Part shown: in pieces, positions 26,885 to 32,101 of the stretch | How positions within the stretch are numbered: position 1 is the stretch's first letter | Layout: every line of letters begins with the position of its first letter | DNA from: an uncultured Actinomycetota bacterium | Lineage (GTDB): Bacteria; Actinomycetota; Actinomycetes; JAHEKZ01 | Direction of reading: 5' to 3' | DNA: 64,000 nt | Assembly: GCA_963706045.1 (NCBI GenBank) | Contig: CAVPLY010000008.1 | Coordinates: forward strand, 13,966 to 77,965 | Position numbers and translations under genes: made by a program | Notes under the pieces: generated by a model | What the model was told of the DNA's origin: nothing | The model's database searches: none | The model's input: only the letters and a program-made list of their open reading frames with translations

Positions 26885-28246
26885 ATGGGAGGGCTGATGG
26901 CCAAGTTCGTGACCACTGACGAATGGGTCGAGAAGAGCAAGGCGGCTCGAGCTCGCGTGCCGCGCAAGTCGCTGGCTGAGCACGTCGTCGCCGATGACCG
27001 GCCCGATCCCGTCGAGTTGCTGTACGCGTCCGACGCGGGCCGCGATGAAGATCTGCTCCCCCTCAAGTACGAGCGGATGGGCGTCTCGGCATTCACGTTC
27101 TATCGAGGGTTCGCGGCGATGCATGCCTACGACCTCGGCCAGGGTCAGCGCACCGACCTCGACGTCCAGCTCTGCGGAGACATGCATCTGTCGAACTTCG
27201 GCGTCTACGCATCGCCTGAGCGGAACCTCGTCTTCGACGTCAACGATTTCGACGAGACGCTGCCTGGCCCCTTCGAGTGGGACCTCAAGCGGCTCGTCAC
27301 CTCGTTCGAGATCATGGGGCGCACGAGGGGATTCTCGTCGTCGGTGACGGCCGCTGCGGTCAGACAAGTCACCGAGTCGTATCGCGTCCGCATGGGCCAG
27401 CTGGTAGCGATGAACGAGGTATCGGTCTGGTACGACCGCATGGACCAGTCTGTCCTGGAGTCGATGGCCGCCACCTTCGGTGCCAAGCGGGGGCGCAAAC
27501 AGATGGATGCACGCCTGGCCAAGGCCAAGGGCAAGACTCACGCCCGTGCGGCAGCGAAGCTGACGGACGTTGTTGACGGCCGGCGTCGGTTCCGCTCCGA
27601 ACCGCCGCTGCTGCAACCGCTGGACTACTCCGCCGACGAGACGGTGCTGCTGACTGCGGTGTTCGACCAGTACCGGTCAACGCTGTCGGCCGACCGCGAT
27701 CACCTGCTCAACCGGTATCGGATCATCGACGTCGCGCGCAAAGTGGTGGGTGTCGGCAGCGTCGGTACTCGGTGCTGGGTGCTGCTCCTCGAGGGACGAA
27801 CAACCGAAGACCTCTTGTTGCTCCAGGCCAAAGAGACTGGCCGGTCGGTGCTCGAGCCGTACGCGCGAAAGAGCGCCTTCCGGCATCAAGGCCGGCGGGT
27901 GGTTGAAGGCCAACGGCTCACCCAAGCAGCGAGTGACATCTTTCTCGGGTGGGCGAACGGCGTTGACACGAGTCGGCAGTACTACGTCCGACAGCTGCAC
28001 GACATGAAGGGCGGTGTCGAGCCTGATCGAATGCCGGCAACGAGCCTGCGACCGTACGCTGAGATCTGCGGCACCGGTCTGGCCCGAGCCCACGCGCGGG
28101 CGGGTGGGGCAACGATGATCTCGACCTACCTGGGCAGCAGCGACCGCGTGGACCGAGCTTTGGCCGAGTACGCCAAGGCGTACGCCGACCAGAATGAGCG
28201 CGATTTTGCCGCCTTTTCAGCGGCCCGGGCAGGAGCGCCTTCGTAA
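26885..28246 (+). CDS. DUF2252 domain protein
   Basis: LLPLKYERMGVSAFTFYRG, GDMHLSNFG and NDFDET motifs typical of DUF2252. Confidence 0.8.
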   Translation: MGGLMAKFVTTDEWVEKSKAARARVPRKSLAEHVVADDRPDPVELLYASDAGRDEDLLPLKYERMGVSAFTFYRGFAAMHAYDLGQGQRTDLDVQLCGDMHLSNFGVYASPERNLVFDVNDFDETLPGPFEWDLKRLVTSFEIMGRTRGFSSSVTAAAVRQVTESYRVRMGQLVAMNEVSVWYDRMDQSVLESMAATFGAKRGRKQMDARLAKAKGKTHARAAAKLTDVVDGRRRFRSEPPLLQPLDYSADETVLLTAVFDQYRSTLSADRDHLLNRYRIIDVARKVVGVGSVGTRCWVLLLEGRTTEDLLLLQAKETGRSVLEPYARKSAFRHQGRRVVEGQRLTQAASDIFLGWANGVDTSRQYYVRQLHDMKGGVEPDRMPATSLRPYAEICGTGLARAHARAGGATMISTYLGSSDRVDRALAEYAKAYADQNERDFAAFSAARAGAPS

Positions 28247-28256
28247 GACGGCCTCC

Positions 28257-28724
28257 CTACAAGCCGAGGTAGGACAAGTTCGGGTGGTCATCGGGCCGAC
28301 GACCAAGCGGCCAGTGGAACAGCCGTTCGTCCCCGGTGATCGACAGGTCATTGATGCTGGCGAACCGTCGCTGCATCAGGCCGTCCGCGTTGAACTCCCA
28401 GTTCTCGTTGCCGTAGCTGCGGAACCAGTCGCCCGATTCGTTGTGCCACTCGTAGGCGAAGCGCACCGCGATGCGGTTGTCGGTGAAGGCCCACAGCTCT
28501 TTGATGAGGCGGTAGTCGAGCTCGGTGGCCCACTTACGGGTGAGAAATGCGTGCACTTGGTCACGGCCCTCGGGGAACTCCGCCCGGTTTCGCCAGGTGG
28601 TGTCGGGCGTGTAGACCTGGACAACGCGGTCGGGGTCGCGGGAGTTCCAGGCATCTTCGGCCATGCGCACCTTCTGCGCGGCGGTCGCAGCGGTGAATGG
28701 CGGGAGCGGCGGCTTGGTGTCCAT
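28257..28724 (-). CDS. DUF1348 / NTF2-like (SnoaL superfamily) protein
   Basis: [20 protein letters not shown]...[24 protein letters not shown] matches the DUF1348 pattern. Confidence 0.8.
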
Positions 28725-28869
28725 CGTGGCTCCTCTGGGATGACCTGAACCTGGCCGCGGTGTCGACCGGATGCCGTCGATTCTGCCTCTCGCCGCTACC
28801 CCGATGCCAGAGGTGCGACGATGGCGCCGGCGGGCACTCCGGCTCGCTCCTCACGTCAGGAGCTTGCTC

Positions 28870-29223
28870 ATGAGCCAGGACCCAGTCGCAACCAACCCCG
28901 ACAACTACAAGGTCATCTTTGAAAACGATCGCGTCAGGGTGCTGGAGTACCGCGATACTCCCGGGCACCGGACCACGCCTCATGACCATCCGGACAGCGT
29001 CATGTACACCCTGAGCACGTTCCGGCGCCGTCTCTACGCCGAGGATGGTCAGACCCGCGATGTCGACATCGAGTCGGGCACGACCGGTTGGCTGCCGGCT
29101 CAGCGCCATGCTGGTCACAACATCGGTGACAGTGAGACGCACGTCATCTTCGTTGAGCTGAAGGACACCCTGGGCGCTGCCGAGGACGACGCTGGGCAGG
29201 TGGGCCCGACGCTTGGTGGCTGA
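28870..29223 (+). CDS. cupin-domain protein
   Basis: ATG at 28870. NYKVIFENDRVRVLEYRDTPGHRTTPHDHPDSVMY...HAGHNIGDSETHVIFVELK is a cupin metal-site pattern. Confidence 0.7.
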   Translation: MSQDPVATNPDNYKVIFENDRVRVLEYRDTPGHRTTPHDHPDSVMYTLSTFRRRLYAEDGQTRDVDIESGTTGWLPAQRHAGHNIGDSETHVIFVELKDTLGAAEDDAGQVGPTLGG

Positions 29224-29226
29224 AGC

Positions 29227-29392
29227 GGACCACCGCTGTCGCCCAGATTCCCGGTGAGCTCTAGTCATTCTGGGTCGGTGCGAACGGAGGAATACTCCAC
29301 GGCACGTCACCCATTCGGCAGCGGAACGTTCACTCTCTGAGACCGATACCTCTGATGCGAGGCTGTTGGAGCGTCGCCCTGGGAGGTGGAAG
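29227..29392 (+). promoter_or_regulatory. conserved upstream region / putative 5' leader of peptide cassette 1
   Basis: About 165 nt that aligns block by block with 29797..29961 (ggaccac, gatt(t)ccc, ctagtcatt, gtcgg, aacgga, cgtcaccc.ttcg.cagcgga, gggaggtg-RBS). Confidence 0.55.
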
Positions 29393-29503
29393 ATGAAGAA
29401 CGTCAAGGCACAGGTAGTCGTCTCGGTGCTCGGGAGTACCGCCACGATCCTCACGCTGGTGTCGGTCGTTGGTGCCGGTACCAAGTGGCAGCTCGGTCTG
29501 TAA
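29393..29503 (+). CDS. small hydrophobic cationic peptide, type A (36 aa): MKNVKAQVVVSVLGSTATILTLVSVVGAGTKWQLGL
   Basis: GGGAGG RBS 7 nt upstream of the ATG. Four paralogs nearby differ mainly at synonymous sites. Confidence 0.7.
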   Translation: MKNVKAQVVVSVLGSTATILTLVSVVGAGTKWQLGL

Positions 29504-29514
29504 GGGGAGGCGAC

Positions 29515-29619
29515 GTGAAGAACATCAAGGCTCAGGTGGTCGTCTCGGTGCTCGGGAGTACCGCCACGATCCTCACGCTGGTGTCGGTCGTTGGTGCCGG
29601 TACCAAGTGGCAGCAGTAG
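29515..29619 (+). CDS. small hydrophobic cationic peptide, type A (34 aa): MKNIKAQVVVSVLGSTATILTLVSVVGAGTKWQQ
   Basis: GTG start with an AGGGGAGG RBS, 11 nt after the previous stop. Near-identical to peptide 1. Confidence 0.7.
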   Translation: MKNIKAQVVVSVLGSTATILTLVSVVGAGTKWQQ

Positions 29620-29627
29620 GAGGCGAC

Positions 29628-29732
29628 ATGGAAAACGTCAAGGCTCAGGTGATCGTCTCGGTGCTCGGCAGCGCCGCCACGATCCTCACGCTGGCATCGG
29701 TGATCGGTGCCGGCAAGAAGTGGGCTCACTAA
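29628..29732 (+). CDS. small hydrophobic cationic peptide, type B (34 aa): MENVKAQVIVSVLGSAATILTLASVIGAGKKWAH
   Basis: ATG with a GGAGG RBS, 8 nt after the previous stop. Its C-terminus GAGKKWAH is shared with the peptide at 30074. Confidence 0.7.
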   Translation: MENVKAQVIVSVLGSAATILTLASVIGAGKKWAH

Positions 29733-29751
29733 GTCACAACTGTTGTGGTGA

Positions 29752-29787
29752 TTCGCGCCAGTCCCCGCCCAACGGGGCTGGCGCGAA
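29752..29787 (+). terminator. strong GC hairpin closing cassette 1
   Basis: ttcgcgccag-t-ccccg / cccaa loop / cgggg-ctggcgcgaa: a 15-bp stem with one bulge, 20 nt after the stop. Confidence 0.65.
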
Positions 29788-29796
29788 CGCATGTTC

Positions 29797-29961
29797 GGAC
29801 CACTGAGACCACCCGATTTCCCAGGGCGTCCTAGTCATTTCGAGTCGGCACCAACGGAGTGAACCCGCCACTGAGCGTCACCCGTTCGCCAGCGGAGTGT
29901 TCGCGAATCGTGGCCGAGACTGAGGGAGGAAATGTCGACGTCCCACCTCGGGAGGTGAGTT
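29797..29961 (+). promoter_or_regulatory. conserved upstream region / putative 5' leader of peptide cassette 2
   Basis: Duplicate of 29227..29392 with the same ordered conserved blocks, ending in a GGGAGGTGAG RBS. Confidence 0.55.
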
Positions 29962-30066
29962 ATGAAGAACGTCAAGGCCCACGTGGTCGTCTCGGTTCTC
30001 GGAAGCGCCGCGAGCGTTGCCGCGCTGGTGTCGGTGGTCGGTGCTGGTACTAAGTGGATGAGGTAG
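29962..30066 (+). CDS. small hydrophobic cationic peptide, type A (34 aa): MKNVKAHVVVSVLGSAASVAALVSVVGAGTKWMR
   Basis: Diverged from peptide 1 by many synonymous changes (gca/gcc, gta/gtg, ggg/gga, agt/agc, acc/act) and conservative replacements. Confidence 0.7.
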   Translation: MKNVKAHVVVSVLGSAASVAALVSVVGAGTKWMR

Positions 30067-30073
30067 GGGAGAC

Positions 30074-30181
30074 ATGGAGATCATCGAGGCACAGGTTGTG
30101 ATCTCAGCGCTCGGTAGCTCCGTCACGATCTTGTCCCTGGCATCAGTCATGATTGCCGGCAAGAAGTGGGCTCACCTTTAG
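30074..30181 (+). CDS. small hydrophobic cationic peptide, type B (35 aa): MEIIEAQVVISALGSSVTILSLASVMIAGKKWAHL
   Basis: ATG 7 nt after the previous stop, with a GGGGAG RBS. Type B C-terminus. Confidence 0.7.
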   Translation: MEIIEAQVVISALGSSVTILSLASVMIAGKKWAHL

Positions 30182-30215
30182 ATCGCGACAACTAGGTCAC
30201 AACAACAATCACCGC

Positions 30216-30249
30216 TCGCGCCGGTCCCGACACATCGGGGTCGGCGCGA
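30216..30249 (+). terminator. GC hairpin closing cassette 2
   Basis: tcgcgccg-gtcccg / acacat / cggggt-cggcgcga, homologous to the cassette 1 hairpin. Confidence 0.6.
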
Positions 30250-30272
30250 ACGTGTGTAACGGAAGACTCGAT

Positions 30273-30298
30273 GTGGTGGGCGATACTGGAAGAAAACC
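30273..30298 (-). repeat. displaced 3'-end fragment of tRNA-Val(GAC); distal att-like direct repeat of the island
   Basis: gtggtgggcgatacTgga is 17/18 identical to 41565..41582 (gtggtgggcgatacAgga). Similarity extends to aacc, giving 21/26. Confidence 0.75.
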
Positions 30299-30355
30299 GG
30301 GGACGAAGCTGACTCATCCCGCCCGGCGCTGGAGCCCGAATCGGCTGCTGACCCG

Positions 30356-30789
30356 ATGCATGACAAGGAATGCCGCACACTGTTCCGCAGACTGGCACGA
30401 CTTTGGCACCCCGACTTCGCCACCGATGAAGATGACAAGACGCTTCGTCACGCGATGATGGCTCGGATCAACGACCTCTACAAGACCCGGGACCAGAAGG
30501 TCTGCGGCGCCTCTGGGATCAGGGTGCCTCGGCGCTGACTGACGCCGGCCTTCCTGAACTTGAGGCGCTCCGGGAGCGAATCATCAAAGTGAGTGCGGAC
30601 CTTGAGGAAGTCCGGAGTCACATCGAAGAGCTTCTCGAATCACCACTGGAGCAACTCAGGGTGGATCTTGACGAGGCCCGAATGCAGGGAAGGGACCTCT
30701 TCGCCGAGCAGGCCGCGGAGGCTGACGCTGAGATCGACCAACTTCTCGAGGCACTTCACGATCTTGCTGACTCCGTCCAACACGAGTAG
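30356..30789 (+). pseudogene. J-domain (DnaJ-like) protein with frame break near 30488-30493
   Basis: FRRLARLWHPDFATDEDDKTLRHAMMARINDLYKTRD carries the HPD motif. Continues in another frame as EGLRRLWDQGASALTDAGLPELEALRERIIKVSADLEEVRSHIEELLE... (ORF 30589..30789). Confidence 0.6.
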
Positions 30790-30929
30790 TCCTCACAAAG
30801 ACCACCACGCGCGCAGGGCTCTATGAACTGAACATGGCTGGTCAAACGTCAGATGCCCAACCTGTTCAGCAGCCGGTCAACCTCGCTGTCCTGGCCACTC
30901 CACCGTCGGAGTTCGGCCTTCAGAGCTGA

Positions 30930-31637
30930 GATTGTCTCCCTGGCGTTGGCCAATTCCCGCAGGATCGATTGGGTGTGGGCAGCGACGGCTGCGACACCCG
31001 CGCCGAAGTCCTCATCGCCGAGTCCCTGAAACGGGTACGGACAACCTCCGGCTGCTACGTCCGCACCGGGAAGTGGTTCTCCAAGTACGACGGCCTCACC
31101 TTCAAACGGGCCACCAACCTCGACATCGACCACATGGTGCCCCTCGCCGAGGCGTGGGGGTCCGGGGCGAAGAAGTGGAACTCCAGCACCCGGGGCCGGT
31201 TCTCCAACGACCTGGCCTACCGGTACTCACTGATCGCGGTCAGCGCCTCCAGCAACCGGTCCAAGAGCGACAGTGACCCGTCTGAGTGGATGCCACCGCG
31301 CAGGAAGTTCCACTGCGACTACGCCAAGCAGTACACCGCCGTGAAGTAGCGGTGGAACCTGAAGGTGAACAAGGCCGAGCGCACCAAGCTTCGCCGCACC
31401 ATCAAGTCCTGCAGCGACAAGCGCATCCTCAAACCCCACCGAGCCGACATCAACACCGGCAGCTCAGGCGGTGGCGGTGGTGGTGGTCGGTGTGACCCGA
31501 ACTACGCCGGCGCGTGCATCCCCATCGTCAACTACGACCTCGACTGCTCCGACATCCCTGACCGCAACTTCCGCGTCGTCGGCAGAGACATCCACGGCTT
31601 CGACGGCGACGGCGACGGGATCGCCTGCGAGACGTAG
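30930..31637 (+). pseudogene. DUF1524/HNH-type nuclease fused to an Excalibur Ca-binding domain; N-terminus missing and in-frame TAG at 31347-31349
   Basis: GSDGCDTRAEVLIAES...LDIDHMVPLAEAWGSGA...SNRSKSDSDPSEW...YTAVK-stop-RWNLKVNKAERTKL...DGDGDGIACE. Both halves are in the same frame. No signal peptide or start codon lies upstream (stop at 30927). Confidence 0.7.
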
Positions 31638-31687
31638 AGCCTTGCACGAATACCTTCCTGAGAACATTGATCCTGCGTCCGCTGCTT

Positions 31688-32101
31688 CTAGTTGACCCTC
31701 CAGGCGGTGCGGTCAATGGTGATCGTCGAGGGGTCGCCGCTTCCCCAGTACCACCATTGAGGCACCTGTAAGAAGGGGGCGACATAGTCGTCTAGTGCTG
31801 CAGGATTGAGTGTCACATTGAAACCTTTGTGCAAGATGATTCGCTGATTGTCCATGTTCCCGAAGTAGTAGTCGCGCAGCCCGGGTTCCCTTTGCCCAAC
31901 CGTCGGATCCACCGGAATCCATCCCACTCCCTGAAGGTAGAACTCCGCCCACACGTGAGTCTGCTCGACCCCTGAGATCGCCCAGTGGCCGACAACGGGG
32001 CGTGCGGGGATCCCCGATGCGCGGGCAACGGCAACAAATAGTGCCGCGTAGGCTCCGCACTCTCCTCGGCCCGTGGCCAGCAGGCTTCTTGCGCCGTCCA
32101 C
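31688..32101 (-). CDS. transglutaminase-like cysteine protease core, short (137 aa, possibly N-terminally truncated)
   Basis: GECGAYAALFVAVARASGIPARPVVGH...HVWAEFY...GWIPVDPT is a Cys-His-Asp transglutaminase-core pattern. Only 46 nt separate it from the upstream gene. Confidence 0.6.
   Translation of the reverse strand: MDGARSLLATGRGECGAYAALFVAVARASGIPARPVVGHWAISGVEQTHVWAEFYLQGVGWIPVDPTVGQREPGLRDYYFGNMDNQRIILHKGFNVTLNPAALDDYVAPFLQVPQWWYWGSGDPSTITIDRTAWRVN

What the first reader, a model, noticed from the sequence alone, without database searches (positions are those of the whole stretch)
29227..29392. Conserved ~165-nt upstream region shared by both peptide cassettes: candidate promoter plus structured 5' leader
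Regions 29227-29392 and 29797-29961 align in ordered blocks: ggaccac, gatt(t)ccc, ctagtcatt, gtcgg, aacgga, cgtcaccc(a/g)ttcg(g/c)cagcgga, then ccc(t/tc)gggaggtg. The sequence between the blocks has diverged. That mix of conserved and variable segments is what a promoter plus cis-regulatory RNA would show, for example a ligand- or protein-responsive leader, or the target of an antisense RNA as in type I toxin loci. In cassette 2 the RBS sits in ccacctcgggaggtg, which can pair with itself and may occlude the SD sequence. I do not recognise the sequence as a known riboswitch class.
Basis: seen in the sequence. Interest (0 to 1): 0.6.

Follow-up and report, generated by a model that had tools for sequence, protein, structure and literature searches.

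The report
Conserved control region of small-peptide operons
The two look-alike 165-base stretches are real, selected control regions (promoter plus leader) for operons of tiny membrane peptides, built around a very old sequence box that is in no RNA database; how the box works is still open.

Summary

The similarity is not only a duplication remnant. Synonymous sites of the duplicated peptide genes are just 62-64% identical. Homologous upstream regions precede the same two-peptide operon in 19 of 20 genomes of the taxonomic family and in other families of the class.

The shared core is a bipartite motif:
- TCACCC-N4-GG(C), at 29307-29318 and 29878-29889.
- CGAY exactly 37-38 nt further on, 86-139 nt before the start codon.

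The same 41-nt motif heads a separate, highly conserved ~110-nt non-coding locus. The short box is over-represented genome-wide, mostly between genes, across the class.

Cassette 2 begins right after cassette 1's terminator. Its outermost blocks must therefore be promoter or operator DNA.

In the window-type leaders the box can pair with the Shine-Dalgarno sequence GGGAGGUG. A hairpin near that sequence shows compensatory changes. No pairing of the box is supported by covariation across types, and the window leaders fold no better than shuffles.

Verdict: a genuine cis-regulatory region with a new motif. A riboswitch is unsupported, and whether the box acts in DNA or RNA is unresolved.

The parts
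29227..29392 (+). Cassette 1 upstream regulatory region (the finding)
   Evidence: Aligns block by block with 29797-29961. Homologous copies precede peptide cassettes in G009 (4 copies) and G003.
29797..29961 (+). Cassette 2 upstream regulatory region
   Evidence: Same blocks in the same order. It begins about 12 nt after the cassette 1 terminator, so it must contain its own promoter.
29228..29270 (+). Upstream blocks GGACCAC, GATTCCC and CTAGTCATT: candidate promoter or operator DNA of cassette 1
   Evidence: Conserved in all 7 window-type copies. CTAGTCAT lies 46 nt before the box, where the third leader type has the palindrome TGACTAGTCA. No sigma-70 consensus was found.
29797..29839 (+). 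The same upstream blocks of cassette 2 (GGACCAC 29797-803, GATTTCCC 29815-22, CTAGTCATT 29831-39)
   Evidence: Their position directly after the terminator argues for a DNA-level role (inference).
29307..29318 (+). Box TCACCCATTCGG (TCACCC-N4-GG), cassette 1
   Evidence: Invariant core upstream of 36 of 48 peptide cassettes, 86-139 nt before the ATG. The 12-mer class occurs 15 times in the own genome against 0 in the reversed control.
29878..29889 (+). Box TCACCCGTTCGC, cassette 2 (second G replaced by C)
29344..29347 (+). CGAT at a fixed +38 from the box start, cassette 1; GGAAC at 29323-27 lies 16 nt upstream of it
   Evidence: CGAY sits at +38/39 in nearly all leader types and in Locus 2. 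GGAAC/CTAAC-N16/17-CGAY occurs only in the window and core types.
29915..29918 (+). CGAG at +38 from the box start, cassette 2 (degenerate CGAY)
29357..29377 (+). Hairpin P2 (GCGA...UCGC) just upstream of the Shine-Dalgarno sequence, cassette 1
   Evidence: In the RNAalifold consensus of 6 window-type leaders, 4 of the 28 predicted pairs carry changes on both sides, all in the P2 stems next to the SD. By my reading of the sequences, one is GCGA/UCGC in cassette 1 against GGGA/UCCC in cassette 2.
29381..29395 (+). Shine-Dalgarno GGGAGGTG (29381-88) and the ATG (29393-95) of the first peptide gene
   Evidence: In the consensus fold the SD pairs with the box UCACCC, but both sides are invariant.
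29950..29964 (+). Shine-Dalgarno GGGAGGTG (29950-57) and the ATG (29962-64) of cassette 2
29393..29732 (+). Cassette 1 peptide genes: A 29393-29503, A 29515-29619, B 29628-29732
   Evidence: An HMM of the peptides finds the A+B pair in 19 of 20 family genomes.
29962..30181 (+). Cassette 2 peptide genes: A 29962-30066, B 30074-30181
29755..29784 (+). Terminator hairpin of cassette 1 (GCGCCAGTCCCCG-CCCAA-CGGGGCTGGCGC)
   Evidence: Read from the sequence. Cassette 2's counterpart is at 30217-30248.
30217..30248 (+). Terminator hairpin of cassette 2
   Evidence: Read from the sequence.

Best explanation
Each ~165-nt stretch is the cassette's own cis-regulatory region. The upstream third (GGACCAC, GATTCCC, CTAGTCATT) is promoter or operator DNA. 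The rest is most likely a 5' leader of roughly 55-120 nt. The leader is built on an ancient bipartite element, TCACCC-N4-GG followed by CGAY exactly 37-38 nt later. This element has accompanied the two-peptide operon family since before the divergence of several actinobacterial families. In the window-type leaders the C-rich box (an anti-Shine-Dalgarno look-alike, UCACC) and neighbouring segments can pair with the extended Shine-Dalgarno GGGAGGUGA. A small covarying hairpin (P2) sits next to the SD. Translation of the peptides is therefore probably held off by default and released, or transcription gated, by an unknown trans-acting factor that recognises the box. Shown: the conservation, the fixed spacing, the wider occurrence of the motif, and expression of the operon in nature. 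Inferred: the transcription start, that the box lies in the RNA, SD masking, and the existence of a factor.
For: The blocks are real and exceed chance. Synonymous third positions of the duplicated peptide genes are only 62-64% identical, while the box, CTAGTCATT and the SD are 90-100% identical. The peptide pair occurs in 19 of 20 family genomes and 31 of 301 class genomes. The box lies 86-139 nt before the ATG in 36 of 48 cassettes, with CGAY at +38/39. The long-motif pattern gives 62 hits against 4 controls in 20 genomes. By my sorting of the listed places, about 26 of those hits are peptide leaders or Locus 2. Cassette 2 starts right after a terminator. The window-type consensus fold has box:SD pairing, a helix P0, and P2 stems with 4 compensatory pairs. 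The G009 copy folds at z = -3.3 with the box:SD helix. Metatranscriptome contigs cover the leader including the box. Two multi-read contigs start 14 and 8 nt upstream of the box in the core locus, in runs where the flanking genes are barely seen.
Against: No transcription start is mapped. The contigs are unstranded, of low depth, and tend to break at strain-variable sequence; one begins at +46 from the box. The window's own leaders fold no better than shuffles. Box:SD pairing is impossible in the core and distant leader types, whose SD is GGGGAG. The candidate pairing of the box's 3' half with CGA shows no covariation. The short box also occurs at many unrelated intergenic sites, several next to gene starts, which fits a DNA-binding factor at least as well.
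Confidence: 0.5

Rival explanations
1. The bipartite motif is purely a DNA-level promoter. The box is a -35-proximal or activator site. Transcription starts a few bases after a non-sigma-A -10 element, read either as TGTCACC-N15-CGT(T/C), which resembles the ECF41 signature, or as GGAAC/CTAAC-N16/17-CGAY. That leaves only a short 40-55-nt leader.
For: The spacing is strict with no indels across deep divergence, and there is no covariation. Window-type copies read (T/C)GTCACC-N15-CGTT/CGTC/TGTT. That is close to the published ECF41 signature TGTCACA-N16(+/-1)-CGTC/TGTT (PMC3426412; sequences). GGAAC-N16-CGAT is present in cassette 1 (29323-47). The box is enriched genome-wide in intergenic DNA, and one intergenic region carries two back-to-back boxes in the divergent arrangement of paired promoters. 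One RNA contig starts at +46.
Against: Neither the CGT(T/C) nor the AAC element is conserved in the distant, core or Locus 2 versions that share box and CGAY. Most RNA contigs include the box and upstream sequence. In Locus 2 and the core type, -10-like TAG hexamers lie 11-22 nt upstream of the box. No sigma-factor gene was found with a box at a convincing autoregulatory distance.
Confidence: 0.27
2. The cassettes are type I toxin-antitoxin-like loci. The conserved leader is the pairing target of a divergent or antisense small RNA and holds the toxin mRNA translationally inert until it is processed.
For: The peptides are 34-36 aa and hydrophobic. The cassettes are tandemly amplified, with 2 copies here and 3 in G009. 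The leaders are long with a maskable SD.
Against: The ancestral A+B pair is a syntenic core locus next to an agmatinase gene in nearly every genome of the family. That pattern is unlike typical type I toxins. No antisense promoter or terminator was evident. A SigF-like reading of the reverse strand fails on spacing. Strandedness could not be tested.
Confidence: 0.1
3. The leader is a ligand-binding riboswitch of a new class.
For: The motif has conserved and variable segments with fixed spacing, lies upstream of membrane-peptide genes, and is absent from Rfam.
Against: No conserved helices with covariation enclose the invariant nucleotides. Thermodynamic stability is not above shuffles. The sequence between box and CGAY is free to vary without compensating changes. 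The box occurs alone at many sites, with variable distances to genes.
Confidence: 0.05
4. The similarity is only a leftover of the tandem duplication and has no function.
For: Overall leader identity (about 60-72%) is close to the identity of synonymous sites in the duplicated genes.
Against: The identity is concentrated in blocks. The same blocks recur upstream of orthologous and paralogous cassettes in other genera and families.
Confidence: 0.03

Closest known systems
5' leaders of type I toxin mRNAs (tisB/istR-1, zorO/orzO, dinQ/agrB of E. coli)
   Same: A long leader precedes a very small hydrophobic peptide gene. The SD can be masked by an upstream C-rich segment. The loci are tandemly repeated. 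The comparison with those systems rests on my knowledge of them.
   Different: No antisense RNA was shown. The ancestral peptide pair is a syntenic core operon of two distinct peptides. The box also occurs upstream of unrelated genes. There is no sequence similarity.
ECF41-type ECF sigma promoters (TGTCACA-N16-CGTC; PMC3426412)
   Same: Window-type and third-type leaders read (T/C)GTCACC-N14/15-CGT(T/C), with the box as the would-be -35.
   Different: The invariant part here is TCACCC-N4-GG, not TGTCACA. The CGT element is missing in the core, distant and Locus 2 versions and at the generic box sites. ECF41 factors are reported to control only their neighbouring COE gene.
PafBC / RecA-NDp promoters of Actinobacteria (TGTC[AG]GTG-N8-TAnnnT)
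   Same: An asymmetric element containing GTC(A/G) is followed 8 nt later by a TA-starting hexamer at about a third of the generic box sites.
   Different: The canonical RecA-NDp motif exists separately in this genome, 7 sites against 0 control. The hexamers after the box are TAG(T/C)(C/G)N and lack the final T. The peptide leaders have no such hexamer.
Anti-SD leaders and RNA thermometers (ROSE, fourU) and other SD-sequestering 5' UTRs
   Same: A C-rich upstream segment is complementary to the SD. The box UCACC is identical to part of the 16S rRNA 3' tail.
   Different: The pairing spans about 75 nt, is not conserved in all leader types, and was not tested for temperature or any other signal.

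Membership tests
Any Rfam 15 family (riboswitches, leaders, sRNAs) | Covariance-model match at or near the gathering score | tested here: not met
   No hit in 27000-32000 at E <= 10 except chance matches elsewhere. The whole window yields only 4 tRNAs. Locus 2 and the core locus give no hit at E <= 1.
Riboswitch (new class) | Conserved helices supported by covariation around invariant ligand-contacting nucleotides | tested here: not met
   On 33 leaders, pairing of box positions 9-17 with 32-40 scores no better than shuffles, and only 3 base pairs are generally possible. Window leaders fold at z about 0.
Riboswitch (new class) | Ligand-dependent structural change | not testable with these tools
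   Needs in-line probing, SHAPE or ITC.
Type I toxin-antitoxin locus | Small (under 60 aa) hydrophobic toxin peptide | tested here: met
   Five ORFs of 34-36 aa, each a single predicted hydrophobic helix ending in GAG(T/K)KW. Toxicity was not tested.
Type I toxin-antitoxin locus | Antisense or divergent small RNA pairing with the toxin mRNA | not testable with these tools
   Only unstranded Logan contigs are available. No minus-strand promoter or terminator consensus was found.
Type I toxin-antitoxin locus | Translationally inert primary transcript (SD sequestered) | tested here: inconclusive
   The SD or AUG is paired in the predicted folds, but by different partners in each copy. The box:SD helix is invariant, so it cannot be tested by covariation.
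ECF sigma-dependent promoter (ECF41-like or GGAAC-type) | Conserved -35 (TGTCACA or GGAAC) and -10 (CGTC/CGT) separated by 16 +/- 1 nt in all members | tested here: inconclusive
   Present in the window type and partly in the third and core types. Absent in the distant and Locus 2 versions and at generic box sites.
ECF sigma-dependent promoter | The same motif upstream of the cognate sigma-factor gene (autoregulation) | tested here: not met
   Eight sigma region-2 genes were found. Only one has a box, about 330 nt upstream of the likely start.
PafBC / RecA-NDp promoter | TGTC[AG]GTG-N8-TAnnnT | tested here: not met
   Seven canonical sites lie elsewhere in the genome and none in the leaders. 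The box sequence differs and lacks TAnnnT.
LexA (SOS) operator | TCGAAC-N4-GTTCGA palindrome | tested here: not met
   Seven palindromes occur in the genome, none within 29227-29961.
Upstream ORF / leader-peptide attenuator | A conserved reading frame across the motif | tested here: not met
   The frame across the box differs between cassettes 1 and 2. A 1-nt indel lies before CGAY, and the ORFs ending at box-adjacent stops are 18-81 nt with no coding signal.

The most novel reading that the evidence does not exclude
TCACCC-N4-GG is the recognition site of an undescribed regulator, protein or RNA, shared across the class Actinomycetes. Its regulon would include a conserved two-peptide membrane operon, its amplified island-side copies in this window, and a ~110-nt highly conserved non-coding RNA (Locus 2) that carries the same 41-nt head. 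The fixed box-to-CGAY spacing would mark a new kind of promoter or leader architecture.
Probability: 0.3. Interest if true: 0.75.

Novelty: new member of a known kind. Interest (0 to 1): 0.5.

Why it matters
If the box is a true regulatory site, it links three things. The first is a pair of tiny membrane peptides kept by a whole family of uncultured freshwater and soil actinobacteria and expressed in natural communities. The second is their amplified copies beside a genomic island. The third is an unannotated non-coding locus. That would give a handle on small proteins and a regulon that current annotation misses entirely. It would also add a motif that can be looked for in cultivable Actinomycetes, where it could be tested.

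Tried and rejected
- Rfam, at gathering and permissive thresholds, on the window, the core locus and Locus 2: nothing.
- Pfam and NCBIfam for the peptides: nothing meaningful.
- Sigma-70 consensus scan: no promoter in the region.
- DNA runs holding the window: identical sequence, so no new variants for covariation.
- Coding or uORF reading of the box, and the idea that the TAG after generic boxes is a real stop codon: rejected, because frames are inconsistent and the ORFs are tiny.
- PafBC/RecA-NDp and LexA: both have their own canonical sites elsewhere.
- SigF/SigB-like, SigK-like or SigH-like promoter on the reverse strand (GGGTGA as -10): spacing to any -35 fails, by inspection.
- CRP/GlxR, GlnR/PhoP-type direct repeats, BldD, McbR, AdpA and MerR-type dyads: no fit, by inspection from memory of their consensus sequences, which is not a formal test.
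- Pairing of the box's 3' half with CGA (helix P0 or a pseudoknot) as a universal feature: no covariation.
- Full-text search for the 12-mers: no relevant paper.
- TAnnnT position histogram around 68 box sites: no clear -10 peak, only TA(G) at +15.

Full report
**1. The observation**

The sequence at 28800-30700 shows two cassettes on the + strand.
- Cassette 1 has three genes for 34-36-aa hydrophobic peptides: A at 29393-29503, A at 29515-29619 and B at 29628-29732. It ends in a 13-bp hairpin at 29755-29784.
- Cassette 2 has two genes, A at 29962-30066 and B at 30074-30181, and its own hairpin at 30217-30248.

A global alignment gives 119 identities of 166, against 100 +/- 3.2 in shuffles. 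No Rfam family matches, even at E <= 10.

**2. It is more than a duplication scar**

At codons that encode the same residue, third positions of the cassette 1 and cassette 2 genes are only 62-64% identical. Neutral sites have therefore drifted a good deal, yet the box, CTAGTCATT and the Shine-Dalgarno (SD) sequence are nearly invariant.

The decisive evidence is comparative.
- The window lies in a 2.05-Mb, 69%-complete MAG.
- All relatives found are uncultured Actinomycetes MAGs.
- An HMM of the five peptides finds an A+B pair in 19 of 20 genomes of the taxonomic family and in 31 of 301 genomes of the class.
- The MAG's own second copy lies next to an agmatinase-like gene at G000:C11:43642-43830.

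I collected 48 distinct cassettes and their upstream DNA. Three leader types emerge:
- the window type (this window, four copies in G009, one in G003);
- a syntenic core type;
- a third type.

More distant versions occur in other families.

**3. The conserved core**

In 36 of the 48 cassettes a box TCACCC-N4-GG(C) lies 86-139 nt before the start codon.

Anchored on the box, a position-by-position count shows near-invariance at box positions 1-6 and 11-13, a frequent G15 and C27, and CGAY at +38/39. There are no indels apart from one base, and the sequence in between varies freely. In the window the box is at 29307-29318 and 29878-29889, and CGAT/CGAG is at 29344-47 and 29915-18.

A pattern combining these elements gives 62 hits against 4 controls in the 20 family genomes. 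By my sorting of the listed places, about 20 of the hits are peptide leaders.

About 6 further hits of that scan mark a different place, which I call Locus 2. The own copy is at G000:C2:232189, minus strand; five copies were aligned.
- The same 41-nt head is followed by a ~70-nt stretch that is almost invariant even between genera.
- That stretch folds into a long hairpin with a G-rich loop.
- No gene lies downstream and there is no Rfam match.
- Words from this locus occur in many metatranscriptomes.
- Locus 2 and the window-type leader remain similar for about 20 nt past CGAT.

**4. The short box is a wider motif**

TCACCC[AG]T[AT][CT]GG occurs 15 times in the 2-Mb genome, against 0 in the reversed control and at most 3 for any permuted hexamer. 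At least 10 of the 15 sites lie outside any long high-GC3 reading frame, and the rest sit at frame beginnings.

Downstream genes are varied:
- an endonuclease III;
- an EEP-family nuclease;
- an acyl-CoA synthetase;
- a chemoreceptor-like protein;
- a Tat-signal cysteine-rich protein;
- three copies of a ~90-aa ORF with a 135-nt leader.

One intergenic region carries two boxes back to back, in the divergent arrangement of paired promoters.

Across the class, 118 of 121 sampled genomes have the box, with counts far above the control, for example 32 against 1, 27 against 0 and 19 against 0. In one complete 5.2-Mb genome of another family, about 12 of 19 sites lie outside or at the edges of long reading frames by a crude test.

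One caveat applies. A reversed control does not preserve codon bias, and CAC-CCG-TTC-GGC would read His-Pro-Phe-Gly in preferred codons. Part of the class-wide excess may therefore be coding.

About a third of the box sites carry TA(G) two bases after the box, but not TAnnnT. The canonical PafBC/RecA-NDp motif and LexA boxes exist separately in this genome, so the box is neither. I found no paper that mentions the 12-mer.

**5. Is the box read as DNA or as RNA?**

Arguments for DNA:
- strict spacing without covariation;
- genome-wide intergenic occurrence;
- back-to-back boxes;
- window-type copies that read (T/C)GTCACC-N15-CGT(T/C), close to the ECF41 signature TGTCACA-N16-CGTC (PMC3426412);
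- GGAAC/CTAAC-N16/17-CGAY in the window and core types.

Neither of those candidate -10 or -35 elements is kept in the distant, third-type or Locus 2 versions. No sigma gene carries the box at an autoregulatory distance.

Arguments for RNA:
- Metatranscriptome contigs cover the box in six samples. In the core locus, two multi-read contigs begin 14 and 8 nt upstream of the box, in runs where the neighbouring genes are barely detected. Others begin further upstream, and one begins at +46.
- The peptide-coding contigs have higher depth than the flanks, so the operon is expressed in nature.
- In the core type and in Locus 2, TAG-starting hexamers lie 11-22 nt upstream of the box.

These contigs are unstranded, shallow, and prone to break where strains differ. 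I treat them as moderate evidence only.

One structural argument is firm. Cassette 2's conserved region begins about 12 nt after cassette 1's terminator. Its first blocks (GGACCAC, GATTTCCC and probably CTAGTCATT) therefore cannot all be transcribed leader and must include promoter or operator DNA.

**6. RNA structure**

RNAalifold on six window-type leaders gives a consensus with three elements:
- the box UCACCC pairs with the SD GG(A)GGUGA;
- a helix P0 joins box positions 9-18 to the strand ending in CGA;
- a hairpin P2 lies next to the SD.

Four of the 28 pairs show compensatory changes, all in the P2 stems. By my reading of the sequences, one is GCGA/UCGC in cassette 1 against GGGA/UCCC in cassette 2. 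The box:SD helix is invariant on both sides, so it can be neither confirmed nor refuted.

One G009 copy folds very stably in this shape (z = -3.3). The window's two leaders do not, with z from +0.5 to -0.4. Their minimum-energy folds mask the SD (cassette 1) or the AUG (cassette 2) with different partners.

The core type instead has CUCCCC complementary to its SD GGGGAG, and a competing G-run. SD masking thus seems a recurrent theme, implemented differently in each type. It does not explain why the box itself is universal.

**7. Verdict**

The finding is a real, selected cis-regulatory region with a new, deeply conserved motif.
- My best reading (0.5) is promoter or operator blocks followed by a leader that contains the box, with translational masking of the SD and an unknown factor acting on the box.
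- The main rival (0.27) is that box and CGAY are a promoter read only as DNA.
- The type I toxin/antisense reading (0.1) and the riboswitch reading (0.05) remain possible but lack support.
- Pure duplication remnant is contradicted.

It is a new member of a known kind, a bacterial regulatory leader or promoter element, and of moderate interest. Interest would rise if the class-wide box proves to be the site of an undescribed regulator.

Noticed in passing
G000:C2:232080-232192, minus strand (locus L122, 1480-1592): 'Locus 2' is a ~110-nt non-coding element. It starts with the same box-to-CGAT head as the peptide leaders. Then comes an almost invariant long hairpin, GAACGGCG.GGCCGGUGCCAC-ACGAGGGG-GUGGCAUCGACCGCGCCGUUC. 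It is conserved between genera, has no Rfam match, and its words are found in many metatranscriptomes. It is a candidate small RNA.
   Followed up: partly
G000:C11:43400-43830 (L091, 1000-1434) and homologous loci L013-L036: A syntenic core operon of two distinct 33-35-aa peptides (A ...VVGAGTKWM., B ...VVGAGKKWA.) lies between an agmatinase-like gene and a large multi-pass membrane protein gene (not characterised here). It is present in 19 of 20 family genomes and matches no Pfam or NCBIfam family.
   Followed up: partly
Own genome, 15 sites (e.g. C18:11029, C27:15522, C19:32754, C31:9651), and 118 of 121 genomes of the class: The 12-mer TCACCC-R-T-W-Y-GG is strongly over-represented and mostly intergenic. 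It is often followed after 2 nt by TAG. No known regulator motif fits.
   Followed up: partly
G000:C2:12047-12119: Two boxes in inverted, back-to-back orientation lie 49 nt apart in one intergenic region. On one side are two genes for Tat-signal, cysteine-rich secreted proteins.
   Followed up: no
G000:C3:5005, C3:10533 and C15:5637: Three near-identical copies of a ~90-aa ORF (MAATADRIDILDEAGRSIGW...). Each has a box-bearing 135-nt leader with a GGGGAAGGGG Shine-Dalgarno region. They look like a repeated or mobile unit.
   Followed up: no
Own genome (C10:14106, C17:56704, C19:37454, C24:93060, C24:87204, C31:36904, C31:36546; LexA boxes on C1, C7, C8, C11): Seven canonical RecA-NDp/PafBC-type promoters (TGTC[AG]GTG-N8-TAnnnT) and seven LexA palindromes. 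Both DNA-damage regulons appear present in this lineage.
   Followed up: no
G000:C27:15566-16300: The endonuclease III (nth) gene downstream of a box appears split into two frames (121 and 113 aa). This may be a frameshift or an assembly error.
   Followed up: no
window 29755-29784 and 30217-30248: The two cassette terminators keep a 13-bp stem through several compensatory changes (CAGTCCCCG/CGGGGCTG against CGGTCCCGA/TCGGGGTCG). Both lack a U-tract.
   Followed up: no
G009:C70:15944-17350 (L002): The same cupin gene is followed by three window-type cassettes in G009, against two here. The copy number of the amplified cassettes therefore varies between species.
   Followed up: partly
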